From Mobula hypostoma (Eukaryota): DNA of 64,000 bases. The position numbers were made by a program, and so were the translations under genes. The stretch is taken from assembly GCF_963921235.1 (NCBI RefSeq), contig NC_086097.1, positions 163,930,001 to 163,994,000 of the forward strand. Reading direction: 5' to 3'. Below, piece by piece: positions 1,108-41,585 of the stretch; position 1 is the first letter of the stretch, and every line of letters starts with the position of its first letter. The notes beneath the pieces are model-generated. The model saw nothing but the letters and a program-made list of their open reading frames with translations, was not told the origin of the DNA and did not search any database.

Positions 1108-2980
1108 CCATAAAAGCATAAGATACAGGAGCAGGATTAGGCTATTCAGCGCTTCAGGTCTGCTCCGCTATTTCATCATGGCGATGGATTTTCACTCTCA
1201 GCCCCATTCTCCTGCCCCACCCCTGTAACATTTCACACCCTGACTAATCAACAACTTATCGACATCCATTTTAAATACATTCAGTGACCTGGCCTCTCCA
1301 GCTACCACTGGCAATGAGATCCACAGATTTACTGACATTTGGTTTAAGAAATTCCTCCTCATCTCCATTCTAAATGGACGTCCCTCTATTCTGAGGTTGT
1401 GCTCTCTAGTCCTAGATTCTCCCACTGTAGGAAATATCCTCTCCACATCCACTCTACATCGACTGTATCTAGGCCTTACAACATTCAATAAGTTTCAATG
1501 AGATCCCACCCCCCGCCCCACAACTCTTCTAATCTTTAGCAAGTACAGGCCCAGAGCCATCAAACACTCCTCATATGATAACCATTTCCTGGAATTATTC
1601 TCGTGATCCTCCTCTGAACCATCTCCAATGTCAGCACGTCCTTTCTTAGAAAAGGGGCCCAAAACTGCTCACAATATGCCCAATGAGATCTCATCAGTGC
1701 CTTATTAAACCTGAGCATTACACCCTAGTTTTCACATTCCAGTCCTCTCAAAATAAATGCTAACATTGCATTTGCCTTCCTCATCTCTGACTTAACCTGC
1801 AAATTAACCTTTAGGGAAACCTGCACATGTACCTCGGATCTTTGAATTTTCTGTCTGCTTGGAAAATAGGCTATGCTTTTGATCCTTCTCTTAAAGTGCA
1901 TGACCATACACTTCCCAACTCTCTATTCCATCTGCCACTTCTTTGCCCTTTCTCCTAATCTGTCTAAGTCCTTCTGCAGCCTCCTTGCTCCCTCAACGTT
2001 ACCCGCCCGCACACCTATCTTTGTATTATCCGCAAACTTGGTCACAAAGCATCAGTTCCACTATTGAAATCATTGGCATATAATGTAAAAAGAAGCGGTC
2101 TGAACACCAACCTCTGGGGAGCACCCCAAGTCACCAGCAGCCAATCAGAAAAGGCTCCCTTTATTCCACTCTTTGCCTCCTGCCAATCAGCCAATTTTCT
2201 ATCCATGCTAGCATATTTCCTGTAATACCATGGGCTCTTATCTTGCTAAGCAGCCTCATGTGTGGCACTTTGTCAAACGTCTTCTGAAAATCCAAGTACA
2301 CAGTATCCACTAATTCTCCTTTGTCTATCCTGCTTATTATTTTGTCAAATAATTCCAACAGGGAGTCGATTGTTAAGGATGAGGTCTTAGGGTACTTGGA
2401 GGCACATGATAAAATATGCCATAGTCATCCTTAACAATCAACTCCAACATCTTCCCAACCACTGAGGCTAGGATAACTGGCCTATAATTTCCTTTCTTCT
2501 GTCTCTCTCCCTTCTTGTGACATTTGTCATTTTCCAGTCCTCTGGAACCATGCTAGAATCTAGTGATTCTTGAAAGGTCATTACTAATGCCTACCTTGTT
2601 CAGAACTCTGAGGAGTAGTCAATCTGGTTCAGGTCTAGCTTCAGACCTTTCAGGTTCCCAAGCACATTCTCCCTAGAACTAGTGATTGCACTCACTTCTG
2701 CCCTCTGACACGCTTGAACATCTGGCATACAAATGTGTCTTCCACAGTGAAAACTAACACTAAGTATTTACTTATTTCATCTGTTGTTTCCTCGTCCCTC
2801 ATTGCGACCTCTCCGGCATCATTTTCCAGTGGACTGATGTATACTCTCATCTCTCTTTTACCCTTTGTAGACCTGAAAACACTTTTGGTATCTTCTTTGG
2901 TAGTACTGGCTTGCTTACCTTCATATTTCATCTCTTCCCTCCTTATGCCTTCCCACTAATCTTTGCTCTGTTATATATCC
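1108..2980 (-). mobile_element. Decayed 5'-truncated CR1-type LINE (RT region and 3' end)
   Basis: Minus-strand peptides VYLDFQKTFDKVPHMRLLSKIRAHG, RKANAMLAFILRGLE and MRRNFLNQMSVNLW; 3' tail remnant near 1108-1125. Confidence 0.85.
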
Positions 2981-3319
2981 TCTCTTTTGCTTTTATTTTG
3001 TTCTTATTCCCAAAAAAGACTCAATGACAGTTAAAATCTGTTCTGAGGTTTCAGGTGAAAGAAGCTTGAGCTTAAATGCTATTTTGAACTTTTTAAAAGA
3101 TTTTTGTTGAATATGGACACTGAAACAGACAAGATAATTAGAAGTCTTGATTCAGTGCTTCCCAATGTGTAATTCTGTGCATTGTGTGTCAGATCCAATA
3201 ATTGCTGGACAAAACATGTTTCATTATGGGGAAAAAATGTTCAGTGGTAGAAATGCCTCCACTGCACAGCTCACAGATACTGAAGAGGTGCAAAGAAGTA
3301 TTCGTGAGATGAGAACTAC

Positions 3320-3417
3320 AAATTCTAGATGGAAATGTCAACAAGTTGTTCTGGTCTAGCCATATGAACATCATAGTCAAGAAAGTACACCAGTACCTCT
3401 ACTTCCTCAGAAGGCTG
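3320..3417 (+). mobile_element. Rex1/Babar-type LINE fragment, left half (split by the Gypsy insertion)
   Basis: Reads ...VKKVHQYLYFLRRL and continues after the far LTR at 16583 as LRKFRIFPMTRTNFYGCI. Confidence 0.65.
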
Positions 3418-3640
3418 TGTATTGTGTTGAAACTCCAGAAACTAATCAAAAGAAAAGCCAAGGAGCCGAACCAATACTCTAATTAGTTGTTATTCTTTAG
3501 TGAAACACTCACATATGACATGGTGGCGTAATGACATATGCCACTCATGTATTTATTAATGAATTATGTAAATGACAAAGAATGCTTAATCAAATAATGT
3601 TTACAATATTACTCAAATATTACTGAAATATTAAATTATA
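3418..3640 (-). repeat. 3' LTR of the Gypsy element
   Basis: Similar to 16356-16582, sharing the blocks gaaactaat, ctttagtga, cactcacatatga, aagaatgc and tttacaatattact. Adjacent ctcctcc at 3641 is a polypurine tract on the - strand. Confidence 0.8.
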
Positions 3641-5131
3641 CTCCTCCATGCTTAGCTATAAAATCCAACTCAATATAGAATCAAAGCCTCACTGTTAATT
3701 TGTGTGAAATTTCTCTGCAGCAATAAAGGAACATATATTGGTTGACAGTGACATAAGCTGTGGTGGAGGAGTTTTACAGTGAAAAAGCCACTGCACAGGG
3801 GCAGTTCCACTCTCTTGACCTCAAGAAGCTTGGTGCAATGGTATGAAAAATCATCACGACTGGAGAGTTCCTTGGCTGCAATGGATAGCCATGACACCTT
3901 CTGTGCCTTTCTCATGCCCATCGCTCTCCTTGAAGCATTGCACCACTGTCTTCTTGGCCATTGAATCTTGTAGTTGATCTCATCCGCTCAGTCCGCCAGA
4001 ACTGGCTTCACGTGCTGGGGCAGGCATATTCCTATCCCACCAAGGTTTCCCTCACCTAGATTAGCCTGCCTATCGAGGCAGCGTACTGGGGGGTCGCCAC
4101 TGTCATATGCAAACAGTTATTTGGAGCCACAGGTGAGAGCTGGGTGGCAGGTGGGGTCCAAAGGTGGATGAGCTGCCCCTGGGCAGAGGACGACAAGCCC
4201 ACCACCAGAGGTGCTACCCCTGCCCGGACACCCCTCTCTGCAGCAGTCAGGTAATGTGATGTAAAGGCTATGGAGAGTTCACTTCCGTCATTCATAACAT
4301 GTGACATGAGTGCACCTATACCGTAAGGTGAGGCATCACAGGCAATCTTCACTGGACGATGTGCATTACAACGTATGAGTACAGTATCTGACTTCAACAT
4401 TTCCTTTGCCTTTTGGAAAGCCATCTCACACTGTTTTTTCCATTGCCACATCCTCCCGATCTCTCGTAGTGAGTCCAGGGGTTGGAGCACAAAAGCCAGC
4501 TTTGGCGGGAACCTGTTATAGTAATTGACAAATCTGAAAAGGGACTGTAACTGTGACATGTCTTTAGCCTTGGGGCATCCACCACTGCTTGAATTTTCTC
4601 AGGACACTTGTGTAATCCTTGTGACTACAGGAAGTGAAGCTTGGTTTCAAGAATTCACACTTCTCTTGTGCTCTGAGCCAATAATCTTCCAATCTTTTTT
4701 AACACTCTCTTGAGATTTTGGAGATGTTCCTTGTAATTCTAACTGGTAACACTGAGTACCTGCGCAGCTTTGCAGCACCTACTCCGTATCCTTCCATCAG
4801 AACTGAAGTACAGATGCTACTCCAAAAATAAGCCCGCAATAGTGATAAAGCCCTTTGTAAGTGTGAAGAGTGAGAAACACCTTGAACTCTTCCATCTCCA
4901 TCTGTAGATAGGCCTTGGCTAAGTCCACTTTGCTGAAGTGTTTTCCTCCAGAAAGGTTTGCAAAGGTATTGATCTACTTTCTGTACTGGTTTGATGGTGA
5001 TCTTTAAATGTTGGTTACTAGGAAAACTGGTGTTGCCAATGGGCTCCACTCAACCTTTAAAAGAATTTGTGGAATCTAGCTCACTGACTACTTTATCGCG
5101 GAAGGTAGAAGGAACCAGATGGGCTTTGTAA

Positions 5132-6960
5132 TATGTGAAAAGAAAAAGATTGGTTAAGACAAATGTAGGTCCCTTACAGTCAGAAACAGGTGAATTGATC
5201 ATGGGGAACAAGGACATGGCAGACCAATTGAATAACTACTTTGGTTCTGTCTTCACTAAGGAGGATATAAATAATCTTCCGGAAATAGTAGGGGACCGAG
5301 TGTCTAGTGAGATGGAGGAACTGAGGGAAATACATGTTAGTAGGGAAGTGGTGTTAGGTAAATTGAAGGGATTAAAGGCAGATAAATCCCAGGGCCAGCT
5401 GGTCTGCATCCCAGAGTGCTTAAGGAAGTAGCCCAAGAAATAGTGGATGCATTAGTGATAATTTTTCAAAACTCTTTAGATTCTGGACTAGTTCCTGAGG
5501 ATTGGAGGGTGGCTAATGTAACCCTGCTTTTTAAAAAAGGAGGGAGAGAGAAACCGGGCAGTTATAGACCAGTTAGCCTGACATCGGTGCTGGGGAAAAT
5601 GCTAGTCAGTTATCAAAGATGTGATAACAGCACATTTGGAAAGTGGTGAAATCATCGGACAAAGTCAGCATGGAGTTGTGAAAGGAAAATCATGTCTGAC
5701 GAGTCTCATAGAATTTTTTGAGGATGTAACTAGTAGAGCGGGTAGGGGAGAACCAGTGGATGTGATATATTTGGATTTTCAAAAGGCTTTTGACAAGGTC
5801 CCACACAGGAGATTAGTGTGCAAACTTAAAGCACATGGTATTGGGGGTAAGGTATTGATGTGGATAGAGAATTGATTGGCAGACAGGAAGCAAAGAGTGG
5901 GAATAAACGTGACCTTTTCAGAATGGCAGGCAGTGACTAGTGGGGTACCGCAAGGCTCAGTGCTGGGACCCCAGTTGTTTACAATATATATTAATGACTT
6001 AGACGAGGGAATTAAATGCAGCATCTCCAAGTTTGCGGATGACACGAAGCTGGGCGGCAGTGTTAGCTGTGAGGAGGATGCTAAGAGGATGCAGGGTGAC
6101 TTGGGTAGGTTAGGTGAGTGGACAAATTCATGGCAGATGCAATTTAATGTGAATAAATGTGAGGTTATCCACTTTGGTGGCAAGAATAGGAAAACAGATT
6201 ATTATCTGAACGGTGGCCGATTAGGAAAAGGGGAGGTGCAACGAGACCTGGGTGTCATTGTACACCCGTCATTGAAAGTGGGCATGCAGGTACAGCAGGC
6301 GGTGAAAAAGGCGAATGGTATGCTGGCATTCATAGCAAGAGGATTTGAGTACAGGAGCAAGGAAGTTCTACTGCAGTTGTAGAAGGCCTTGGTGAGACCA
6401 CACCTGGAGTATTGTGCGCAGTTTTGGTCCCCTAATCTGAAGAAAGACATTCTTGCCATAGAGGGAGTACAAAGAAGGTTCACCAAGTTGATTCCTGGGA
6501 TGGCAGGACTTTCATATGATGAAAGACTGGATCGACTAGGCTTATACTTGCTGGAATTTAGAAGATTGAGGGGGCATCTTATTGAAACGTATAAAATTCT
6601 AAAGGGATTGGACAGGCTAGATGCAGGAAGATTGTTCCCGATATTGGAGAAGTCCAGAATGAAGGGTCACAGTTTAAGGATAAAGGGGAAGCCTTTTAGG
6701 ATGGAGATGAGGAAAAACTTCTTCACACAGAGAGTGGTGAATCTGTGGAATTCTCTGCCACAGGAAACAGTTGAGGCCAGTTCATTGGCTATATTTAAGA
6801 GGGAGTTAGATATGGCCCTTGTGGCTAAAGGGATTAGTGGGTATGGAGAGAAGGCAGGTATAGGGTTCTGAGTTGGATGATCAGCCATGATCATACTGAA
6901 TGGTGGTGCAGGCTCGAAGGGCCGAATGGCCTACTCCTGCACCTATTTTCTACATTTCTA
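5132..6960 (+). mobile_element. Relatively young 5'-truncated CR1-type LINE inserted in Gypsy pol
   Basis: RT motifs YRPVSLTSV, YLDFQKAFDKVPH, GVPQGSVLGP, KFADDTKL and VRPHLEYC, with few lesions; TTTCTA-type tail; TGTAA at 5127-5131 and 6961-6965. Gypsy pol reads through when the insert is removed. Confidence 0.93.
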
Positions 6961-8222
6961 TGTAACACTTGGCTGTTACATTTTCATTTACCACTTTCTT
7001 AGCCTTGATTTGTTTGAGTTTTCCAATGCCATTCTTGACCAATGTTGTGACATCATCCAGTACCTTTCTCTAATCCGCATTCAGTTGACTCTGTTGTAGG
7101 GGATGTGGCATTGCCAATGGTGTAGGGATCTCCAATGAAGTTATGTCTGTCTCAACCAATCGCATCCCACAATACAGGCCCTCCCATTCTTAACCACATA
7201 CATGCCTAATGTGGCTTTTTGGTTATTGTATTTCACTGTTATGAATGTCATTCCCACAGGAGTTACCTTTTCACAAGTATAAGTTTCTAGTTGGAAATCT
7301 GCAGGCTTTAGTTCAGTTTCTTTGAAATGCCTTTCAAACTCATTTTGTGGAATGACTGAAACAAGGAAGCCAGTTTTCAATTCAATGTAATTCATTTGCC
7401 ATTCACTTCTGGTGTAAGCCATATTGCTTGTTTCTTGTTAGTTTTCACATTGTAAATCCTAAGGCTACACTGTCCTGTGTTATTCTCATCATTATCAGAT
7501 TTTTTATCAACATCATGCAGATTAGTGCTCTTTTTGAAACTGCAGCCTGACTTCTTAATCTTTTTTCTCTTCCCAGTGCAGTCTATGTATTTTTGTCTGC
7601 CCCACATGTCTTTGTATGTGGCTTACTTTGTTGCATAGTTTGCAAGTTTTGCATTTTAAACCTGCATTGGTCTGGTGTATGTGAGCTCCTGTCATAATAT
7701 TAACACAACTTGTTTGACCAGGCTGGTTTCTGTTTGGATGTTGCAATTTTGTTCATGCTTGCTTACATTCCTAGCTGCAACTCAATTATATCTCTCTCTG
7801 CCGTTTCCATTGATACAACTATTTGAATTGCTCTTTTAAACGTAGCTTGTGCTTCAGTTCGGAGCTGTTTCTGAATGCTTTCTTGTAAGATTTCACAAAC
7901 AAAATCATCTCTCAGTGCACCATTAATGAACTGGAAATTCTCAGACAATCTCGTCAATTCAGCCACATTTGCTAAAATGGACTCCCCTTCCTTTTGAATC
8001 CATTTATGAACCCAAAGCATTCTGCAATGAACAATAGTTTTGGTTGTAAATGTTTCTGCACTACATTCTCGATATCATCAAAGTTCATTTCGGTTGGTTT
8101 AGTTGGAGCAGTTAAACTCCTAAGCAAACTGTATGCTTTTCCAACAACTGCATGCAGGAACACTGGCACTCTCTTTTCATCAGTTATTTCATTTGCATCA
8201 AAATACTGCTCAATTATACATC

Positions 8223-8250
8223 TTTTCTTTTCTTTTTAAATCTTTTTATT
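8223..8250 (-). terminator. L1 polyadenylation signal and short A-rich tail
   Basis: The - strand reads AATAAA (8250-8245), AAGATTT, AAAAAGAAAAGAAAA, then the TSD. Confidence 0.8.
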
Positions 8251-8581
8251 GAGTAAGTATACAAAAAAGGTAAGCCATATAAACATTAATACAATGTTAA
8301 AGTATAATAAAATTCCAAAAGATAACAATACCAAAAAGAAAATACTACAAACAATGTAATTTAAGCATAAGAAACCAAGATAACATAATAGTATACTAGA
8401 TTTTATATATATCAATGGAAAAAAAGAAAAAAAAAACCCCAAAAAAAAACCCACCGTGCAACTAACTAAAAGCAAAGCAAAGCAATGGGCTAACTTGAAA
8501 CCAAACAGAGTTAAACTTAAAATCACGTCCTCAATCCCGACCTCCATTAAAACAGTGAAGAGAAAACAAGAAGGGTAAATA

Positions 8582-11500
8582 TTACATTAAATGAAAATAT
8601 CGAATAAAAGGTCCCCAAATCTGTTCAAATTTAAATGAAGAATCATAAAGGTTACTTCTAATTTTCTCCAGATTCAAACATAAAATCGTCTGAGAAAACC
8701 AAAAAAAGGTAGTTGGAGCATTAAGCTCTTTCCAATGTTGTAAAATACATCTTTTCGCCATTAAAGTAAGAAATGCAATCATTCTACGGGCTGAAGGGGA
8801 AAGATTACTAGAAATTTTAGGTAGTCCAAAGATAGCAGTAATAGGGTGAGGAGAGATATCTATATTTAATACCTTAGAAATAATATTGAAAATATCTCTC
8901 CAAAAAGTTTCCAAAGTAGGGCAAGACCAAAACATATGAGTTAAAGAGGCTATCTGCCCCGAACATCTATCACAGAAAGGATTAATATGCGAGTAAAAAC
9001 GCGCTAACTTATCTTTGGACATATGTGCTCTATGAACCACTTTAAATTGAATTAGGGAATGTTTAGCACAAATAGAGGAAGTATTAACTAATTGTAAAAT
9101 CTGCCCCCAATCATCCACAGAAATGGTAAGCCCCAATTCCTGTTCCCAATCTACCCTAATCTTATCAAATGGAGCTTTCCTAAGTTTCATAATAATATTA
9201 TAAATCATAGCCGATGCACCTTTCTGACATGGATTAAGGTTAATTATCGAATCTAAAATATATATAGGAGGAAGCATTGGAAAGGAAGTAAGTATAGTAC
9301 TTAGGAAATTTCTAACTTGTAAATATCTAAAAAAATGTATTCTTGATAAGTTATATTTGTTAGATAATTGTTCAAAAGACATAAGGGAACCATCTAAAAA
9401 TAAATCCAAAAACCGTAAAATACCCTTAGTCTTCCAAATTTGAAAAGCGCGATCCGTAAAAGAGGGAGGAAAAAATATGTTACCTAAAATAGGAATCGCT
9501 AACCCGAATTGATTAAGATCAAAAAATTTTCTGAATTGAAACCAAATGCGCAAAGCATATTTAACTATCGGGTTAGAGACCTGCTTAAGACGTTTCGAAT
9601 CAAAAGGAAGAGAGGAACCTAAAATAGAACCAAGTGTATAACCCTGAACAGATTGTAATTCCAATGCTACCCATTTAGGAATAAATAGTATGTCCCGATC
9701 AAGTAACCAAAATTTCATATGTCGAATATTAATAGCCCAATAATAAAATCTAAAGTTAGGTAATGCTAAACCTCCATCTCTCTTAGCTTTCTGTAAATGT
9801 ATTTTACCCAGTCTCGGATTCTTGTTCTGCCAAATAAATGAAGAAATTTTAGAGTCAACTTTATCAAAAAAAGATTTAGGAACGAAAATTGGTAATGCCT
9901 GAAACACATATAAAAATTTTGGCAAAAAAAACATCTTAACTGCATTAATACGACCAATCAAAGTTAAATATAAGGGAAACCATTTAGATGAAAGTTGAGT
10001 AATATGGTCTATTAATGGTAAAAAGTTAGTCTTAAATAAATCTTTATGTTTACAAGTAATTTTAATCCCAAGATATGAAAAGTAATTATTAATCAATTTA
10101 AATGGAAATTTATAATATAAGGGAAGATGTTTATTAATCGGAAAAAGTTCACTCTTACTAAGATTTAATTTATAACCTGAGAAAAGACCAAATTGTGCTA
10201 ATAACTCTAAAACAGCAGGAATGGATCTCTCAGGATTAGAAATATATAAAAGTAAATCATCAGCATAGAGTGATAATTTATGGGACTTTAATCCCCGAGT
10301 TATCCCAGTAATATTTAAAGATTCTCGAATAGCAATTGCAAGAGGTTCTAATGCAATATCAAATAATAGGGGACTAAGAGGACAACCTTGTCGAGTACCA
10401 CGAAAGAGAGGAAAAAAAGGTGAGTTTAAGGAGTTAGTACGAACCGAGGCTACAGGGGAGTAATATAACAGTTTAATCCAGGATATAAATTTCAAGCTAA
10501 AATTAAACATTTCAAGCACCTTAAATAAATAAGGCCATTCTACTCTATCAAAAGCTTTCTCGGCATCTAAAGAAATAACACACTCAGGAACATTTTGTGA
10601 GGGAGTATAAACGATATTTAACAATGTACGAATATTATAAAAAGAGTAACGACCTTTAATAAAACCCGTTTGGTCTTCCGAAATAATAGAAGGAAGTACT
10701 TTTTCTAGTCTATTTGCTAATAACTTAGAAAAAACTTTAGAATCAACATTTAATAAAGATATTGGTCTATAAGATGCACATTGAGCAGGGTCTTTATCCT
10801 TCTTTAGTATTAAAGAAATTGATGCTCTATTAAAAGATTCCGGAAGTTTACCAAGTTTCAAAGAAGCCTCAAAAACCTTATAGAGCCAAGGAATCAATAA
10901 AGAAGCAAAACATTTATAAAATTCAACGGTAAACCCATCAGGGCCAGGAGCTTTCCCCAGATTCATAGAAAAAATAACATTCTTAATCTCATCCATTGTA
11001 ATGGAAGTATCTAATAAAGAAGACATATCCTGTGAAATCAGAGGGAAGTCTAACTTATCTAAAAAATCATTCATATATTTAGAATCTCGAGGAGACTCTG
11101 ATTGGTATAAAGAAGAATAAAAATCACAAAAGGTTTGATTAATCCCCACATGATCCAATATCAATCGATCATTTTGGTTATAAATCTGATTGATTTGAGA
11201 TTTAACATAATTAGATTTCAATTGATTAGCCAGCAGCTTGCCAATTTTATCACTGTGAACATAAAAATCACTTCTTGTTTTCTTTAATTGGTTTACAATC
11301 GAGGACGAGAGTAGTAAACTGTGTTCCATTTGAAGTTCAGTTCTTTGTTTGTATAGCTCCTCAGAAGGAGCCATAACATATTTCTTATCAATTTCTTTAA
11401 TCTTGTCCACAATTACCAACTCCTCCTGCTTCTGTTTCTTCCTCAAAGCAACGGAATACGAAATAATCTGACCCCGAATATAGGCTTTAAAAGTGTCCCA

Positions 11501-12358
11501 AAGAGTGTTAACCGAAATATCTTCTGTATGGTTAATTGTAAAAAAAAGCTCAATCTGTTCATTCATAAAATTAACAAAGTCCGAGTCCTGAAGCAACAGC
11601 GAATTAAAACGCCATTGTCTATTGTTTGGTATATTGGCCATAATTTTAATAGAAAGCTTAAGTGGAGCATGATCCGAAATGGTTATAGAATCATAATCAC
11701 ATTTAATCACTGAAGAAATGAGACGAGAATCAATGAAAAAATAATCAATTCTTGAATAGGAATGATGAACATGTGAAAAGAAGGAAAAATCTTTTTCCTG
11801 AGGATGCAGAAAACGCCAAATGTCCGTCGACCCAGAATCAGAAAGGAAAAAATTAATCAAATTTGCAGATTTATTAGGTAAAGTCCGTAAAGGAGCCGAA
11901 CGGTCCAAAGCTGGAGATAAACAGGTATTAAGATCTCCGCCCCAAATCAATGAAAACTCGTTCAAATTCGGAAACTGATCAAACAATGATTTATAAAATT
12001 CCGGACAATCCATATTAGGAGCATAAACATTAACCAAAACTACTTTTTTATTAAATAATAAACCACTAACCAATAAAAATCTACCATTCGGATCAGAGAT
12101 AATATCCTGTTGTATAAAAGTAACTGAGGAGTCTATAAAAATAGAGACGCCTCGAATCTTAGCATTGGAGTTCGAATGAAATTGTTGTCCCTTCCAAAAT
12201 TTGAAAAAACGTAGTCTGTCCCCCCTCCGTACATGGGTCTCTTGTAAAAATAAAATTTGTGCTTTAAGTCTCCGGAACACTTTAAAAACTTTTTTCCTTT
12301 TAATAGGATGATTAAGACCATTAGTATTCCAGGAGACAAAATTAATAATAGACTCCAT
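8582..12358 (-). CDS. L1 ORF2p (1258 aa from the first ATG): APE endonuclease, reverse transcriptase, C-terminal CCHC knuckle; uninterrupted
   Basis: EN motifs SWNTNGLN, LQETH, NVYAPN, GGDLN, SRIDY and SDH. RT motifs KAPGPDGF, YRPISLLN, SLDAEKAFD, GTRQGCPLSPLLF, YADD and YLGI. C-terminal CDRC-x8-H-x4-C. Confidence 0.96.
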   Translation of the reverse strand: MESIINFVSWNTNGLNHPIKRKKVFKVFRRLKAQILFLQETHVRRGDRLRFFKFWKGQQFHSNSNAKIRGVSIFIDSSVTFIQQDIISDPNGRFLLVSGLLFNKKVVLVNVYAPNMDCPEFYKSLFDQFPNLNEFSLIWGGDLNTCLSPALDRSAPLRTLPNKSANLINFFLSDSGSTDIWRFLHPQEKDFSFFSHVHHSYSRIDYFFIDSRLISSVIKCDYDSITISDHAPLKLSIKIMANIPNNRQWRFNSLLLQDSDFVNFMNEQIELFFTINHTEDISVNTLWDTFKAYIRGQIISYSVALRKKQKQEELVIVDKIKEIDKKYVMAPSEELYKQRTELQMEHSLLLSSSIVNQLKKTRSDFYVHSDKIGKLLANQLKSNYVKSQINQIYNQNDRLILDHVGINQTFCDFYSSLYQSESPRDSKYMNDFLDKLDFPLISQDMSSLLDTSITMDEIKNVIFSMNLGKAPGPDGFTVEFYKCFASLLIPWLYKVFEASLKLGKLPESFNRASISLILKKDKDPAQCASYRPISLLNVDSKVFSKLLANRLEKVLPSIISEDQTGFIKGRYSFYNIRTLLNIVYTPSQNVPECVISLDAEKAFDRVEWPYLFKVLEMFNFSLKFISWIKLLYYSPVASVRTNSLNSPFFPLFRGTRQGCPLSPLLFDIALEPLAIAIRESLNITGITRGLKSHKLSLYADDLLLYISNPERSIPAVLELLAQFGLFSGYKLNLSKSELFPINKHLPLYYKFPFKLINNYFSYLGIKITCKHKDLFKTNFLPLIDHITQLSSKWFPLYLTLIGRINAVKMFFLPKFLYVFQALPIFVPKSFFDKVDSKISSFIWQNKNPRLGKIHLQKAKRDGGLALPNFRFYYWAINIRHMKFWLLDRDILFIPKWVALELQSVQGYTLGSILGSSLPFDSKRLKQVSNPIVKYALRIWFQFRKFFDLNQFGLAIPILGNIFFPPSFTDRAFQIWKTKGILRFLDLFLDGSLMSFEQLSNKYNLSRIHFFRYLQVRNFLSTILTSFPMLPPIYILDSIINLNPCQKGASAMIYNIIMKLRKAPFDKIRVDWEQELGLTISVDDWGQILQLVNTSSICAKHSLIQFKVVHRAHMSKDKLARFYSHINPFCDRCSGQIASLTHMFWSCPTLETFWRDIFNIISKVLNIDISPHPITAIFGLPKISSNLSPSARRMIAFLTLMAKRCILQHWKELNAPTTFFWFSQTILCLNLEKIRSNLYDSSFKFEQIWGPFIRYFHLM

Positions 12359-12794
12359 AAATCCTAAAGTCAACCCATAACAAGGAGGATTGACAATAGG
12401 CGCGACCCACAGACCCGGAGAGGAAACAGAACATACAAAAGATACCGGGGAAAAGGACGTAACCAATACTTCAATAATGTATATAGCCCAAAGAGAAACA
12501 AACTAAAACGTGAAGCCCCTCCCACCGCCCCCCACCCCAGGACCCCAAGGCGAAATCTAAAGCAGACCCGCCAGAAAGAAGCAAGCGCTAAAACTACCCC
12601 CATGACTTCCGGTATACGCTCCCTAAAAAAAAGGTATAAATATGAAAAGGATCAGCTAATTGTAAAACAGTAAAAAAAATAAGTAAAAAAAAGTTAGCTC
12701 AATTAAAATACACACAGAACAGAACAAAAGCCGGAAAGTATATATTAAAAAAAACCACAATAAACCTCAAACTCATGAATAGACACAGCAACAA

Positions 12795-12951
12795 GGGAGA
12801 CTTCCGGTAGCGCTCATGGAGTGAAGTCGCGTTCTTGACTCGCTCCATTACCTCTGAGTTTTTTCTCTCTATGGTCAGCTATACTTTAATTAACTATTAA
12901 GGCATCAATTTTTACAATACTTTGAATTAAACTGAATTCTCTGACAATTGG
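12795..12951 (+). promoter_or_regulatory. Probable L1 5' terminus and 5'UTR (internal promoter)
   Basis: Begins GGGAGACTTCCGGTAGCGCTCATGG exactly at the inversion junction; contains an ETS-type motif (ACTTCCGG) and several CpGs; lies directly upstream of ORF1. Confidence 0.65.
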
Positions 12952-13851
12952 ATGATACTGAGATCGGCTATGTCTAAGAACGGGAAAGACGGCAAGGATG
13001 GTAAACCTCCGGTTAAACCGAAAGCTACGGATCTCCCTCCGACTGAATCACCGGTGACTTTGGAAGCTATATCGGAGTTAATTCAGAGGGAAATTTCAAC
13101 CTCTGTTAGGGAGATGATTCGTACAGAAATTATGGGCTTTGTTAAAGACCTGATTCATATGGAAATCTCAACTAAGTTCCAGAAAATTGCCGATTTAATT
13201 GATAAGATGCAAACATGTATTGCGGAACATCAGTCGGCTATATCTGGTCTTCAAAAATCCGCGCAACAAAGTGAGCTTAAGATGGGGAAAGTCGAAGAAA
13301 CAATTAATGTAATGAAGAAGAAACTTGACTTTTTGACTTTTAAAAACTCTGACTTGGAATCTAGAATGCGACGGCAGAATTTACGAATGATTGGCGTCAG
13401 GGAAGCCGTGGAAGCTAACAACCCTATGAAATATTTCTCCCAACTTTTAAAAGATGCATTCCCTACTGTATTTCCTGACCAACCACCGCTACTGGATCGT
13501 GTTCACAGAATCCCATCATACTCGTCTAGGTCAGATAGACCTAGGCATGTTATCTTACGTTTTCATTACTTTCAAGATAAGGAGAGACTGTTTCGATTCG
13601 CTCGATCTAAAGGTTTCATTGATTTTTCGGATCTTAAGTTCCGATTCGTGGAAGATTTCAGTAAACCAATCTGGGACCAACGGGTCCGTTACAGATCCGT
13701 GATGTCGGAATTCTATAAGATGGATTTAAGACCAGCGCTGCTGTACCCTGCACGTCTAAGGATTCGCATGTTAGATGGAGCTCTTCGTTTTTTTGATTCT
13801 CCATCGGATGCCCAGAGTTATCTGGATCAACTTTCATCTTCAACATCTTAA
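12952..13851 (+). CDS. L1 ORF1p (299 aa; alternative start 12970): coiled coil, RRM and CTD; uninterrupted
   Basis: Heptad-rich N-terminal half, then DLESRMRRQNLRMIGVRE, LDRVHR, PRHVILRFHYFQDKE, FVEDFS and LLYPARLRI, the typical vertebrate L1 ORF1 (Transposase_22-like) motifs. Confidence 0.93.
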   Translation: MILRSAMSKNGKDGKDGKPPVKPKATDLPPTESPVTLEAISELIQREISTSVREMIRTEIMGFVKDLIHMEISTKFQKIADLIDKMQTCIAEHQSAISGLQKSAQQSELKMGKVEETINVMKKKLDFLTFKNSDLESRMRRQNLRMIGVREAVEANNPMKYFSQLLKDAFPTVFPDQPPLLDRVHRIPSYSSRSDRPRHVILRFHYFQDKERLFRFARSKGFIDFSDLKFRFVEDFSKPIWDQRVRYRSVMSEFYKMDLRPALLYPARLRIRMLDGALRFFDSPSDAQSYLDQLSSSTS

Positions 13852-14223
13852 TTGCCTTTTTTTAATTTTCTCCGTTGATCGGAGGCTGTGAATTGGTTGG
13901 TTTTAACTTTTCTGTGCCCTATTTGGGCAGAAAAGTTTACTTTCGATTTCTTAATATGGCTGCTAAACTTTCTTTTTAACTGCGTCATTTCTTTCTTTTC
14001 CCAGGGGATTCTGGGTGGTTACTTCCCTTTTGTCATCTTACGTATTTCCTGTGCGGCCTTAAATTTTGTAGTTTTTTTTAAATTTTATTCTGTTTTGCTT
14101 TTTATAATCATTTTATGTTAATAATCCTATTTTTTTTGTTGCTCAATTATACATCATCTAGTTTTCTGTTGCGAAATCAAACGCTTTAGTCTTTCTGATG
14201 TTGCCAGACATTCCTGTTTATTT

Positions 14224-14542
14224 ACTATTATCACCATCACACAGTACTCACTATTATTTGCACCATCACACTGTACTCACTATTATTATCACCACACAGT
14301 ACTCGCTATTATTAGCACCATCACACTGTACTCACTATTATTATCACCACCACACAGTACTCACTATTATTAGCACCATCACACAGTACTCAGTATTATT
14401 ATCACCACCACACAGTACTCACTATTATTAGCACCATCACACAGTACTCAGTATTATTATCACCACCACACAGTCCTCACTATTATTAGCACCATCACAC
14501 TGTACTCACTATTATTATCACCACCACACAGTACTCACTATT
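14224..14542. repeat. Minisatellite, about 11 x 29 bp, with alternating unit variants
   Basis: Units ACTCACTATTATTAGCACCATCACAC(A/T)GT and ACTCA(C/G)TATTATTATCACCACCACACAGT, head to tail with no spacers. Confidence 0.92.
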
Positions 14543-14665
14543 TGTAGACCTCTGGCTGTACTCGCTGCTTGTTAATTTTGTCCATTTCTTGCTTTTTTAA
14601 AAACCTTGAACATCTCTCTCCACTTCTGAAGAAAAATGTGCTTTTTTTAAAAAAAAACTTAAGTA

Positions 14666-16281
14666 CAGGTTTCCCCCACCATCCGAAGGTAGAGCGTTCC
14701 TATGAAACGATTCGTAAGCCAGAATTTCATAAAGCGAAGAAGCAATTACCATTTATTTATATGGGAAAAATTTGTGAGCGTTTGCAGACCCAAAAATAAC
14801 CTACCAAATCATGCCAAATAACACATAAAACCTAAAATAACAGTAACATATAGTAAAAGCAGGAATGATATGATAAATACACAGCCTATATAAAGTAGAA
14901 ATACTTTTCCACGATAATTGCCTGCACTGTTCTCTGTAGCGAAAATCTCACGCAAGTGCTCTCAGCAAAAACATGGCGCAAGCGCTCTCCAGTAGCCTTT
15001 AAGCTATGAGGCTGCCAAATCATACCAAATAACACGTAAAAATACACAGCCTATATAAAGTAGAAATAATGTATGTACAGTGTAGTATCACTTACGGGAA
15101 CTGCGAAAGCACTGAGCACACTGATGATGGTGTGTTAGGCTGAGTCGTCAGAGGTTGGGGTGGTGCAGTGGCCCCCACCCTCTGGACAGCGAACCGATAC
15201 CGATCCGCGAAGCATGCAGCGGTCCTGCGGTGCCCAGGGCGCGCCCAACACATCTTTAAGAAAAAAGCCGAAATAAACAAGCTAATTAATTAGGTGCTGC
15301 CCGGCATGTAAATGTCGGCCCAGATCGGAGGCAACACAATCGGCAATCATCTCTGATCTGGGCCGACATTTACGTGCTGGGCGGCACCTAATTAATTAGC
15401 TTGTTTATTTCTGCTTTTTTTCTTTAAGATGTGCTGAGTGCCTCCCGGCTACCGCTGCATTCTCTGCGGATCTGTATCTGTCCGTGGCCCGGGGTTTGGG
15501 GTGGTGGGACTCTGGGGTGTCATCTCGTCATCTGTTTCCATGAGGGTAGGCAGGTCATCTTCTTCTGTGTCTGGCGGCCTCGATGTCAAAGGTCGAGGTT
15601 GGTCGTCTGCTGTGGCTGATGTGGAAGGTTTGCTTGACTGCTTAGCCTCGCGCATTTTTAGATCATACAGTTCTTTGTAAGCACTCAAACCATCCTGCAA
15701 ATATGCCCTAAACTGACATACTCTTTCAGAATTAAAGTCGTACTTTATTATTGCAGTGATAATCTCGCGTAGTTGCCTCACGTTCAGTTCCTGGACGACT
15801 TCAGTTTCGCTATTGCATTCGGTTTTGATTGTTATCCTTTCCTCTTCCAATTGCATCAGCTCTTCATCTATCAGTTCTTGGTCATGGGATGCAAAACCCT
15901 CTTCAACATCATCTTCATCAACTTCCACAAGCCAAACTCACTTTGTCCTTACTTCATTCACCACAATTGAAATGCTTAATTATGTCTAGTTTTATGCTAA
16001 GTGTAACACCTTACGAGCTCTTTCAGGCTTTTCCAATACCTTAGAACTCATCTTGCAAACAGCTGCTCACAGGCGTGTGTTTAAGCAATGCTGGCAAGAA
16101 TGCCGTTCTGAATCCGGGGGAGAGCGGCTGCTCGGGGCGCGCACTGCCTTTTTTTTCCGCACGCTGCTTTTTTTTCGTAACAGTGAAAACACCTTCTGTT
16201 AGCAAAAACAGGGAACTAATGTAGGTCTTTTGTAACAGTGAGGTTTCATAAAGCGAGCGTTCGAAAAGCGGGGGACTCCTG
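14666..16281 (-). mobile_element. Non-autonomous Tigger/pogo-like DNA transposon
   Basis: TA on both sides (14664-14665, 16282-16283); imperfect TIRs CAGGTTTCCCCCAC / GCGGGGGACTCCTG; internal remnant resembling a Tigger/TIGD1 transposase C-terminus. Confidence 0.8.
15449..15928 (-). pseudogene. C-terminal remnant of a Tigger/TIGD1-like transposase (no DDE core)
   Basis: EVDEDDVEEGFASHDQELIDEELMQLEEER...LSAYKELYDLKMREAKQ resembles the acidic tail of Tigger1-type transposases. Confidence 0.65.
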
Positions 16282-38413: not shown

Positions 38414-40949
38414 AAGGACAGATTGGGAGAATGGGCAAAGAAGTGTTAGATGGAATATAATATAAGGAAGTATATGATCTTGCAACATGGTAGAAGGAAT
38501 AAAAGTGTAGACTATTTTCTAAATGGGGGAAAATTCAAAAATCAGAGGTTCAAAGGGACTTGGGAGTCCTTGTACAGGATTCCCTAAAGGTTGTCTTGCA
38601 GGTTGAGTTTGTGGTAAGGAACATAAATGTAATGCTAACATACATTTCAATAGAAGAGAATATAAGAGCAAAGATGTAGTGCTGAGTCTTTATAAGGCAT
38701 TTGTCAGACTGCACTTGGAGTATTGTGAGCAGTTTTGGGCCCCTTATCTAAGAAAAGATGTGCTGACTTTGGAGAAGGTCTAGAGGAGGTTCACAAAAAT
38801 TATTCCAGGAATGAAAGGGTTAAAATATGTGGAGCGTTTGATGGCTCTAGGCCTGAACTTGCTGGAGTTTAGTAAAATGAGGAGGTCATCTCATTGAAAC
38901 CAGTTGAAAATGGAAAGGTGTGGACAGCGTGGATATTGGGAGGATGATTCCTGTGGTGGGTGAGTCCAGGATTAAGGGCCACAGACTCAGACTGGAGGGA
39001 TATCCACTTGGAAAAAAGATGAGGAGTAATCTCTTGAGCCAGAGGATAGTAAATCTGTGGAATTAATTGCCACAGTTGTCCATGGGCCAAGTCATTGAGT
39101 ATACTTAAAGTGGAGGTTGATATTTTCTTGATTAGTCAAGGTGTCAAAGGTTATGGGGAGAAAGCAGACAAATGGGGTTGAGACGACATAATAAGTCAGC
39201 TACGTGTAGCCTAATTCTGATGCAATGTCTTATGGTTTAATATTGGTCCCGCTATTATCTTACTCAGTTGTTATTTAAAGACAATCTATTGTACATTTAG
39301 CATAACTGCAGTAGTACTATTACTACAATAAAGGACATAGAATTTGACACAAACTCTTGTAGGTCTGCAGAATATGATTCGGAATCTGAAGAGGTCATCT
39401 GAACAGGAAGAGTTAGTTTCAGGAAAAAAATTCAGCAAATAAAGTAAAACAGATTGGTTTAATTGTCACATCTCTGCTGACCCTGCTGACAATTATTCAG
39501 CTTCCTTGTTCTGGCACACTAAGCAACCCTTTGATACCTTTTGCTTTGATGTTAATGATATGTGTAAAACAATTCAACAACCGTAAAGTCACAGTGGCTG
39601 TTAAAGTTAGTGCTAATTTATGTCACTGCTGGTGAACCAAAGATATTTTATATTACTTTTTAAAAAATCCTGGACAGGGTTTATGTAACAAGAGCCAACA
39701 TTTAGTTTAATGATGGATTTAAAAATTCTAGCTACACAGTAATAAATGTGTCAATTCACCCACCCCTCATGTGATACAACAAAAATGCATTTTTTGCCAG
39801 ATGACATGGCAAGAGCCCTGAAGACTAGACAGGCCATAGAATGCAATGAATATTAGCTCAAGTAACAAACCATTCATTGGTGGAATTCAGCAGGTCAAGT
39901 AATGTCTATGGGGTGAAAAGGAATTTTAGATGTTTCAAGTCAATTCACTGCATTAGTCCTGACGTAGAGTCTCTACCCAAAATGTCAATGTTCTTTCCTC
40001 CCGCAAACGCTGAGTTCCTCCAGCAGATGGTTTATTGCTCCAGATTTTAGAATTTGCAGTCTCTTGTGTCTCCAAGGAAGAGTTTAAGTTTGCATTATTT
40101 CCTATTGCCTTGAAAAGGCTCTGCAGTCAAAAGCATGCTTCCTGTGGACCTCAGCTGCAGTACAAAGCCACCTTAGAACTAGCACTTGCTCTCAATTGGT
40201 CTAGATTGACTTGATTTAAATACCTTACATTGGCAATTTTAGTTGGGATGAGGTGGCATCTTTTCTAACTTGGTCAAGGAAAATACACACAAGATCCCCA
40301 GTTATGAGTCCTCTATGGAGTTGAGTCATTCCTTCAAGAAATGCCAGTCTGGCTGTCAGTGCTTCCTGAGAGCTTCCTCCTGCTTCCTCATGGCTGGAGA
40401 TTGGTAGCATTTGCAGGGATGCAGCATGAAGCCATTGATGTCTGGTTCCTCAGTCAGGAGTTCAGTCTTAATATGTCATGAAAACAAGTCCTTTGATCCA
40501 CCAAATCCATGCTGACCAATAGCCATCCATTCATATTAACCCAGATTATATTCCTTTGTCTATAGCCCTCTATGTCTTCATGATTCAAATGCTCATCTAG
40601 GCACCATTTAAATACCATAAGCAGTTCAGCATCCATACCTTCCTTAGGCTGTGTATTCCAGATACACACCACTCTCAGGATGAAAAAGGTCCTCCTCTTA
40701 AATTTCTATCTCCCTTACTCTAAATCTACACTCTCTGGCTTTATCCATCTCTTACATGTGGGATATTGTCTTGCGATCTACTCTGCATCCTCTTAAACTC
40801 CTCCCTTCTAGGGAAAACGGGTCCAGCCTCTCCTGATAATTGAACTCTTTGCGTAAAAATTTGTCCTCTCATTTCCTTTGAAATTACCCCCTCTCACCTT
40901 AAATGCATGCCCTCTGGTATTAGCCATTATTAGTCATTCCAGGCTTACC

Positions 40950-41585
40950 CATGCTTGCCTTTTTATTAGTTAAGGTGTTGAGTTCAAAAGTCAGGAAGTT
41001 GTGTGCAGCCTTATAAAATTCTAGTTAGACTGCATTTGGAGTCATGCATATAGTTCTGGTTTTCCATCGTTAGAAGGATGTCGAGTTTCTGGAAAGGATG
41101 CAGAAGAGGTTTACCAGAATGCTGCCTGGATTAGAAGGTATGTGCTATAACAAGAGGTTGGATAAACTTGGGTTGTTTTCTCTGTAGCAGCAGAGGCTGA
41201 GGAGGTTAATAGAGGTTTATAAGATTGAGAGGCATGGATAAAGTAGTCAGACAGTATCTTTTTCCCCAGGGTTAAAATGGCTAATACCAGAGGGCATGCA
41301 TTTAAGGTGAGAGGGGGTAATTTCAAAGGAAATGAGAGGGACAAATTTTTACGCAAAGAGTACTTGGAATGCACTACCTGGGGTGATGGTAGAGACAGAA
41401 ACATTAAAGACTTTTAAGAGACATTTAGATAGCACATAAAATGAAGGAAAAGGAAAGATATGGACATTGTGTAGGCAGAAGGGATTAGTATAGTTGGCGA
41501 TTTGATCTACTGATTTGATTGGTTCAGCACGACACTGTGCACGAAAGGGTCTGTTCCCGTGTGGTACTGTGTTATGTTCTCCATT
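40950..41585 (+). mobile_element. Decayed CR1 3' portion
   Basis: gttagactgcatttggagt..cagaagaggtttaccagaatgctgcctgga..3'UTR gggtctgttcccgtgtggtactgt. Confidence 0.75.

What the first reader, a model, noticed from the sequence alone, without database searches (positions are those of the whole stretch)
8207..14155. Complete L1 with both ORFs intact but divergent: loss-free full-length 5' inversion (twin priming) in a probable cartilaginous fish
Seen: one 16-bp TSD encloses tail-3'UTR-ORF2 on the - strand and 5'UTR-ORF1 on the + strand. The inverted arm ends ...CCTATTTTTTTTGTTGCT (TTGTTGCT at 14136-14143). The non-inverted arm starts with the same TTGTTGCT (reverse complement of 12787-12794). 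The two arms therefore rejoin with an 8-nt overlap and no apparent deletion. The last 4 nt of the overlap (TGCT) are the first 4 nt of the TSD. Established: this is the signature of twin priming, where the second target-strand end anneals inside the L1 RNA; it is best characterised in mammalian L1, where inverted copies are mostly 5'-truncated and defective. Inference: the internal primer here copied through to the 5' end, and the break fell between the ORFs, so neither was damaged. I do not know whether such events are reported for chondrichthyan L1.
Basis: partly seen in the sequence, partly recalled or inferred. Interest (0 to 1): 0.88.

Follow-up and report, generated by a model that had tools for sequence, protein, structure and literature searches.

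The report
Front-flipped full-length fish L1 insertion
A very young L1 jumping gene was inserted with its front quarter turned backwards but with both genes unbroken, and such flips, known mainly from mammals, turn out to be common in this L1 family of a probable cartilaginous fish.

Summary
One 16-nt TSD encloses ORF2 and tail (- strand) and 5'UTR-ORF1 (+ strand). The arms overlap by 8 nt, nothing is lost, and both ORFs are open. The family is tandem (39 of 39 other scored copies), the junction occurs once in 3.48 Gb, and a public DNA run holds the empty site. So this is a one-off 5' inversion with the anatomy of twin priming, not a propagating divergent-ORF element. It is not a rarity: at least 9 of 100 sampled copies are inverted. 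Three more full-length inversions break in the spacer, each with its own TSD, and two of them share one junction at an 11-nt inverted repeat. ORF sparing follows from geometry: a 720-nt spacer lies about 1.1-1.8 kb from the 5' end, and inverted arms are about 1.4 kb long. The copy is probably dead in cis. The mechanism is known from mammals; ten searches found no report for fish L1. The scan noted a similar rate for an RTE LINE in this genome (e1-7812926, unchecked). No read evidence for the filled allele was seen.

The parts
8207..8222 (.). Target-site duplication, copy next to the tail (16 nt)
   Evidence: single copy in the empty allele
8223..8237 (-). Short (AAAAG)n-type tail; AATAAA signal at 8250-8245
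   Evidence: sequence; same tail type in other copies
8238..8581 (-). 3' UTR, T-rich in sense
8582..12358 (-). ORF2, 1258 aa, open: APE endonuclease, reverse transcriptase (YADD), CCHC knuckle
   Evidence: named relatives are teleost L1 RTs at 45-47% identity
12359..12794 (-). 3' part of the inter-ORF spacer (family positions 1342-1777); 5' end of the non-inverted arm at 12794
12604..12614 (-). 11-nt spacer motif that is the perfect reverse complement of the element's 5' terminal motif; junction homology in two other inversions
12794..12795 (.). Inversion junction (non-inverted arm to the element's 5' end), no microhomology; unique in the genome
   Evidence: 1 match at up to 2 mismatches
12795..12969 (+). 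Complete 5' UTR (175 nt), starting GGGAGACTTCCGG
12970..13851 (+). ORF1, 293 aa, open (L1 RBD-like domain)
13852..14143 (+). 5' part of the inter-ORF spacer (family positions 1058-1349); 14140-14143 (TGCT) is the microhomology shared with the TSD, the inferred internal priming site
14140..14155 (.). Target-site duplication, copy next to the inverted arm (16 nt)

Best explanation
A single, very recent insertion of a tandem-ORF L1 made by twin priming. Shown: the layout, the TSD, the empty site, the tandem order of the family and the uniqueness of the junction. Inferred: the endonuclease nicked the target, and reverse transcription from the tail copied the RNA back to family position 1342. The second target end (…AGCA-3') paired with UGCU in the spacer and primed a second cDNA that ran 1345 nt to the very 5' end of the RNA. 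That cDNA then joined the 3' end of the first one without homology, as full-length 5' ends normally do. Both ORFs survive because the break fell in the 720-nt spacer; this family has a short 5'UTR+ORF1 (1057 nt) and inverted arms of about 1.4 kb, so an inversion that reaches the 5' end tends to break there. The result is most likely dead in cis: the 5' promoter now reads ORF1 and then flank, away from ORF2 and the tail (inference).
For: Family tandem in 39 of 39 other scored copies (40 of 2120 candidates scored). Junction single-copy. Empty allele with one copy of the 16-mer. 9 of the first 100 exact 3'-end hits on contig C1 are inverted (95% CI 4-16%; lower bound), all 9 seen in sequence. Of 13 inverted copies read, 11 have one clear TSD around both arms, with the inverted arm directly against it; one TSD is blurred (L057) and one was not fetched (L052). 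Microhomology at the TSD/inverted-arm joint sums to 15 nt in 8 copies against 2.7 expected, and to 11 against 2.3 without this locus (p 0.00075). TSDs in those 8 are 14-16 nt, the length PMC4245944 ties to inversions. Short overlaps of the two cDNAs are common in human germline inversions (42%, median 12 nt; PMC12016303 section 8). Complete inverted arms measure 730-2256 nt, median 1441 (8 arms).
Against: No contig or read for the filled allele or the inversion junction appears in the tables shown (41,159 pieces not shown); in run X1 the empty-site contig has the same depth (15.2) as the flanks (13.6-16.5), so that individual seems to lack the insertion, and run X2 of the same sample does not list the joint. 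2 of the 8 copies have no exact microhomology. Sequence alone cannot tell priming on RNA from priming on a sense DNA strand. Promoter direction was not tested. The spacer preference rests on 2 of 3 unbiasedly found near-full-length inversions; the third (L047) breaks in ORF2.
Confidence: 0.86

Rival explanations
1. A normal full-length L1 inserted first and its front part was flipped later by repair through the 4-nt inverted microhomology (AGCA at the TSD end, TGCT in the spacer).
For: The AGCA/TGCT pair is an inverted repeat that bounds the flipped part exactly.
Against: It leaves the extra TTGT at the junction unexplained. In 11 of 13 inverted copies one break lies exactly at the TSD edge, most are also 5'-truncated, and many have overlaps of 16-119 nt, which a clean flip does not make. 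The copy differs from another young copy by one substitution and one tail indel over the 4571-nt arm, leaving little time for a second event.
Confidence: 0.05
2. Assembly or read artefact: the front of a tandem copy was written backwards, or the insertion is not in the animal.
For: No independent read support for the junction; a DNA run shows only the empty site. Hundreds of near-identical copies make misassembly thinkable.
Against: An artefact would not create a TSD that matches a real empty site, nor an excess of target microhomology, nor the same anatomy at a dozen loci with different breakpoints, including older 95-98% copies.
Confidence: 0.03
3. Two insertions at one site: a 5'-truncated copy, then a 5' fragment of a second copy in the opposite orientation.
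For: Same-family nested insertions occur on C1 (marker lists).
Against: The arms meet within 8 nt in family coordinates, there is one TSD and one tail, and the 5' arm has no tail or TSD of its own.
Confidence: 0.02
4. A propagating or functional divergent-ORF L1: a bidirectional promoter at the junction expresses both proteins.
For: Both ORFs are open here and in L042; four loci have the layout; the junction region holds two ETS-like ACTTCCGG motifs (motif name recalled).
Against: This junction and that of L042 are single-copy. The one shared junction (L049, L055) has different TSDs, flanks, priming sites and subfamily age, so it recurred and did not spread. No RNA could carry both ORFs and the tail in sense.
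Confidence: 0.04

Closest known systems
5'-inverted (twin-primed) human L1 insertions (model of Ostertag and Kazazian 2001, not held, known here from PMC2912911, PMC12016303, PMC4245944)
   Same: One TSD of about 15 nt around an inverted and a non-inverted arm, tail on the non-inverted arm, 2-5 nt microhomology at the TSD/inverted joint, short overlap or gap between the arms.
   Different: Non-mammalian host; rate at least 9% here against 18-31% in humans; human breakpoints cluster towards the 3' end with a median inverted arm of 751 nt (germline), here arms are about 1.4 kb and often reach the 5' end; human L1 has a spacer of about 40 nt, so a break that spares both ORFs has almost no target, here it has 720 nt; tail is short (AAAG)n and TSDs mostly begin with G, not the TTTT/AA site.
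Mouse L1Md copies with an inverted 5'UTR (PMC6454616, one passage, data not shown there)
   Same: Inversion that reaches the promoter at the 5' end.
   Different: No statement on intact ORFs; mouse ORFs overlap, so a break between them is not possible.
Fish and frog L1 families with short 5'UTR and long T-rich spacer (PMC5381506)
   Same: 175-nt 5'UTR, 720-nt T-rich spacer (published range 257-1032 nt), ORF1 RBD domain, EN-RT-CCHC ORF2.
   Different: That survey does not mention inversions or sharks (0 occurrences of either word).
Zebrafish LINEs ZfL2-1 and Nimb-2_DR in cultured cells (PMC4245944)
   Same: Fish LINEs scored for 5' inversion.
   Different: They gave no inversions except one Nimb-2_DR insert in chicken cells; human L1 gave none in chicken cells; here a fish L1 inverts often in its own germ line.

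Membership tests
L1 clade non-LTR retrotransposon | ORF1 with L1-type RNA-binding domain | tested here: met
   PF02994, E 8.4e-10
L1 clade non-LTR retrotransposon | ORF2 with APE endonuclease, RT and C-terminal CCHC | tested here: met
   PF03372, PF00078; PF13966 at 26 bits, just under its cut-off of 27.5; named relatives include a teleost 'LINE-1 reverse transcriptase-like protein' at 47%
L1 clade non-LTR retrotransposon | Tandem 5'UTR-ORF1-spacer-ORF2-3'UTR-tail with TSD | tested here: met
   for the family: 39 of 39 other scored copies tandem across the spacer; this copy is rearranged
L1 clade non-LTR retrotransposon | Placement in the L1 clade by an RT tree | not tested
   no tree was built; assignment rests on domains and best hits
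Twin-primed 5'-inverted insertion | One TSD encloses inverted 5' arm and non-inverted tailed 3' arm | tested here: met
Twin-primed 5'-inverted insertion | Arms adjacent in element coordinates, small overlap or gap | tested here: met
   1-1349 and 1342-5912, 8-nt overlap
Twin-primed 5'-inverted insertion | Microhomology between target end and RNA at the internal priming site | tested here: met
   4 nt here; family excess 15 vs 2.7 nt
Twin-primed 5'-inverted insertion | Microhomology at the inversion junction | tested here: inconclusive
   none at this locus or needed for full-length 5' ends (PMC2912911); present in L044 (5 nt), L049 and L055 (11 nt)
Twin-primed 5'-inverted insertion | Two priming events on one RNA molecule | not testable with these tools
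   inferred from the product only
Propagating divergent-ORF LINE family | Same junction at several loci with different TSDs, copied from one source | tested here: not met
   junction single-copy; L049/L055 share a junction but differ in priming site and subfamily

The most novel reading that the evidence does not exclude
The short 5' promoter of this L1 is bidirectional, so the recurrent spacer-break inversions (perhaps tens per genome) form a working class of split L1 loci: ORF1 is read rightwards and an ORF2-plus-tail RNA leftwards from the junction, supplying both proteins and seeding 5'-truncated-looking daughters; the conserved inverted repeat between 5' end and spacer promotes their formation.
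Probability: 0.06. Interest if true: 0.75.

Novelty: new variant of a known kind. Interest (0 to 1): 0.45.

Why it matters
The mechanism is known, but the literature I could see ties frequent 5' inversion to human L1 in human cells (PMC4245944), and I recall (not held) a claim that it became common only late in mammalian evolution. A rate of at least 9% in a probable cartilaginous fish argues that twin priming is an old or host-general property of L1 with long TSDs. The family is very young, has about 3,100 3' ends and hundreds of near-identical full-length copies, and is polymorphic, so breakpoints can be mapped to the base: a natural test set for the model. The long spacer also yields a product that human L1 can hardly make, full-length copies with both ORFs open but divergent, which ORF-based counts of 'intact L1' would misclassify.

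Tried and rejected
1. Daughter test by a seemingly private base at 11419 (absent from all 29 other loci): 423 copies carry it, so the test is void. 2. Expression: no listed holder is on record as RNA; runs X6 and X8 are only guessed to be RNA and hold family contigs, with the tandem spacer join; nothing can be said on expression of this locus. 3. Read support for the inversion junction: none visible, tables cut; absence not shown. 4. A full census of 100 copies by sequence was not possible; marker orientation was used instead, which misses inverted arms that hold no exact marker (20 of 100 copies had no second marker; the marker at family position 5429 reaches only to 103 Mb). One marker hit (47750040) was dropped as a nested host copy 6.3 kb away. 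Marker lists show exact matches only, while genome counts allow 1 mismatch. 5. An early reading of L046 as a 316-nt deletion was wrong; the arm was cut by the fetch and in fact overlaps. 6. Long-range RNA pairing of 5' end and spacer was not folded. 7. A broad search for 5' ends followed by a T run gave no further interpretable inversion. 8. Three key papers are not held. 9. Post-insertion flip, double insertion, artefact and propagating family were weighed and rank low (see rivals).

Full report
Observation. The 16-mer TGCTCAATTATACATC stands at 8207-8222 and 14140-14155 and nowhere else in the window. Between the copies lie, on the - strand, a 15-nt (AAAAG)n-type tail, a 3'UTR, an open ORF2 of 1258 aa with endonuclease, RT and zinc-knuckle matches, and 436 nt of spacer; then, on the + strand, a 175-nt 5'UTR, an open ORF1 of 293 aa and 292 nt of spacer. 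Below, family position 1 is window 12795; ORF1 is 176-1057, the spacer 1058-1777, ORF2 1778-5554, the end about 5912.

The family is tandem and this junction is unique. A search of the 3.48-Gb assembly with 12300-14200 scored 40 of 2120 candidates; the 39 other places all carry the two parts in tandem order, overlapping at the one TTGTTGCT. In the 29 of them that were fetched, the 5' arm is 99.7-100% identical to the window's, in three of them 100% over 1349 nt; 27 of 27 that held the exact key read through a single TTGTTGCT. The inverted arm begins with GGG before AGACTTCC, where other copies have 0-7 G, so the 5' end is complete. The 24-nt junction has one match in the genome at up to 2 mismatches. 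Net change against a tandem copy: 4 nt duplicated, 4 nt shared with the TSD, nothing lost.

The TSD is a true one. In public DNA run X1 a contig joins 8206 to 14140 with 16 letters fitting both sides: the empty site. Its depth (15.2) equals that of the flanks (13.6-16.5), so that individual seems to lack the insertion; run X2 of the same sample does not list the joint. Nine of nine paralogues of the old repeat that hosts the L1 read on across the site. Against my reading, no piece showing the filled allele or the inversion junction is listed (41,159 pieces not shown), so the inverted structure rests on the assembly alone.

The family. Marker counts at up to 1 mismatch: 3097 near the 3' end, 1266 in the spacer, 319 for this ORF1 variant, 1148 for the 5' terminus, which older subfamilies share. 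I took the first 100 exact 3'-end hits of contig C1 (0.55-123.9 Mb) and compared the orientation of nine other markers. Seven copies were inverted with the first six markers and two more with three added markers; a tenth hit was dropped as a nested neighbour. That gives 9 of 100 (95% CI 4-16%), a lower bound. All nine were read, as were two copies further along C1 (L052, L053), one on C64 (L055) and the window's own: 13 in all. Eleven have one clear TSD around both arms with the inverted arm directly against it; L057's is blurred and L052's was not fetched. In the 8 copies scored by script, TSDs are 14-16 nt, 7 begin with G, and exact microhomology between TSD end and L1 sums to 15 nt against 2.7 for random L1 positions; without the window's copy 11 against 2.3 (p 0.00075); two of the 8 have none.

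ORF-sparing inversions recur. L042 (inverted 4-1088, non-inverted from 1062) has both ORFs open and differs from the window's copy by one substitution and one tail indel over the 3' arm; its junction is single-copy. L049 (5-1538, from 1522) has ORF1 open; most of its ORF2 was not fetched. Its arms join through an 11-nt perfect inverted repeat between the 5' terminus and the spacer, which 28 of 29 tandem copies keep and 21 of 3000 shuffles produce. That junction occurs at one more place: L055, an older copy (95-96%) with another TSD, other flanks, another priming site and a broken ORF1. So the junction recurred, it did not spread. L047 reaches position 38 but breaks in ORF2. Among inversions found without bias, 2 of 3 that reach the 5' end break in the spacer. 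Geometry is enough to explain this: complete inverted arms measure 730-2256 nt, median 1441 (8 arms), and the spacer covers 1058-1777. Two of 17 full-length copies in the sample are of this kind (CI 1.5-36%); 2 of 100 scaled to 3097 suggests some tens in the genome (range about 8-220; extrapolation from one contig).

Mechanism. Shown: the product. Inferred: first nick and tail priming; first cDNA to position 1342; the other target end pairs with UGCU at 1346-1349 and primes a second cDNA that reaches the cap; that cDNA continues on the 3' end of the first, with no homology, as at ordinary full-length 5' ends. This is twin priming as described in PMC2912911 (passages: 30.9% of 2068 human- and chimpanzee-specific L1 inverted, 4.6% of these without microhomology) and PMC12016303 (passages and section 8: 18.4% of germline L1; overlaps in 42%, median 12 nt; breakpoints towards the 3' end). 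That both L049 and L055 were primed within about 16 nt of the inverted repeat hints at an RNA stem that stalls the first cDNA, but two cases and no folding test make this only a lead. The copy should be dead in cis: its promoter faces away from ORF2 and the tail, and the first AATAAA on the + strand beyond ORF1 lies in the flank at 15272. An ORF1-only RNA is plausible; nothing here shows expression.

Host. A CR1-type RT fragment at 5876-6379 has its best named vertebrate matches in Callorhinchus milii (60-70%) ahead of birds and turtles (43-54%); one better match is labelled as a bacterial protein, probably a contaminant (inference). ORF2's named matches are teleost at 45-47%. This fits a cartilaginous fish without proving it.

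What is known. PMC4245944 (passages) found 5' inversions only with human L1 in human cells, bar one zebrafish Nimb-2_DR insert, and tied them to TSDs of 10-20 nt and to the host. PMC6454616 (passages) mentions inverted 5'UTRs in mouse L1. PMC5381506 (passages) gives long spacers and short 5'UTRs as normal for fish and frog L1. PMC12350158 (passages) counts 1,047 human 5' inversions and calls inverted copies dead on arrival. Passages of PMC5389967, PMC6007223, PMC13174262 and bioRxiv 2024.12.14.628481 add no non-mammalian case. Ten searches (listings only, except the papers named) found no report of twin priming in a fish L1. Ostertag and Kazazian 2001, Kojima and Okada 2009 and Ichiyanagi et al. 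2007 are not held; what I say of them is recalled or second-hand, and they, Repbase entries or supplements I did not open may hold non-mammalian cases.

Verdict. A real, clean example of a known mechanism, one of several of its kind in this genome. Its worth lies in what it led to: frequent twin priming in a non-mammalian L1, a recurrent class of full-length copies with divergent ORFs, and a possible junction hot spot. New variant of a known kind; interest 0.45.

Noticed in passing
window 12799-12809 and 12604-12614: The L1 5' terminal motif has a perfect 11-nt reverse complement in the spacer (about 17 nt with one indel), kept in 28 of 29 tandem copies; possible relic of an old inversion, antisense promoter element or RNA stem.
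   Followed up: partly
L049:1751-1761 and L055:1963-1973 (as oriented): Two independent full-length inversions of different age share the same junction through that inverted repeat.
   Followed up: yes
TSDs of window, L042-L047, L049, L053: 7 of 8 TSDs begin with G right after a short (AAAG)n tail, suggesting tail-target pairing and a cut site unlike mammalian TTTT/AA.
   Followed up: partly
G000 whole genome: Very young and abundant L1 family: about 3,100 3' ends, 319 copies of this ORF1 variant, many at 99.7-100% identity; 15 of 100 sampled copies are collinear and full-length; at least this site is polymorphic.
   Followed up: partly
G000:C1 29.40-29.42 Mb, 47.74-47.75 Mb, 168.77-168.79 Mb: Marker spacing indicates copies of this family nested inside other copies of the same family.
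   Followed up: no
G000:C1 near 39.05, 113.40, 140.64, 175.62 Mb: Marker spacing indicates internal deletions of about 0.35-1.6 kb in single copies.
   Followed up: no
listing: A sister subfamily starts GGGGACTTCCGG instead of GGGAGACTTCCGG.
   Followed up: no
window 4056-4598 (-) and 7600-8206 / 14156-14250: Decayed RT/RNase H fragment (PF17919); the L1 sits inside an old, high-copy repeat (about 80% identity between copies) that continues on both sides.
   Followed up: partly
window 14223-14566: Tandem array with a 29-nt unit just right of the TSD.
   Followed up: no
window 15172-15501: Large imperfect palindrome (70-nt arms at 93%, outer arms 74-78%), MITE-like.
   Followed up: no
window 40844-40928 and 41276-41361: 86-nt inverted repeats at 99% identity about 350 nt apart, possibly the ends of a young non-autonomous DNA transposon.
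   Followed up: no
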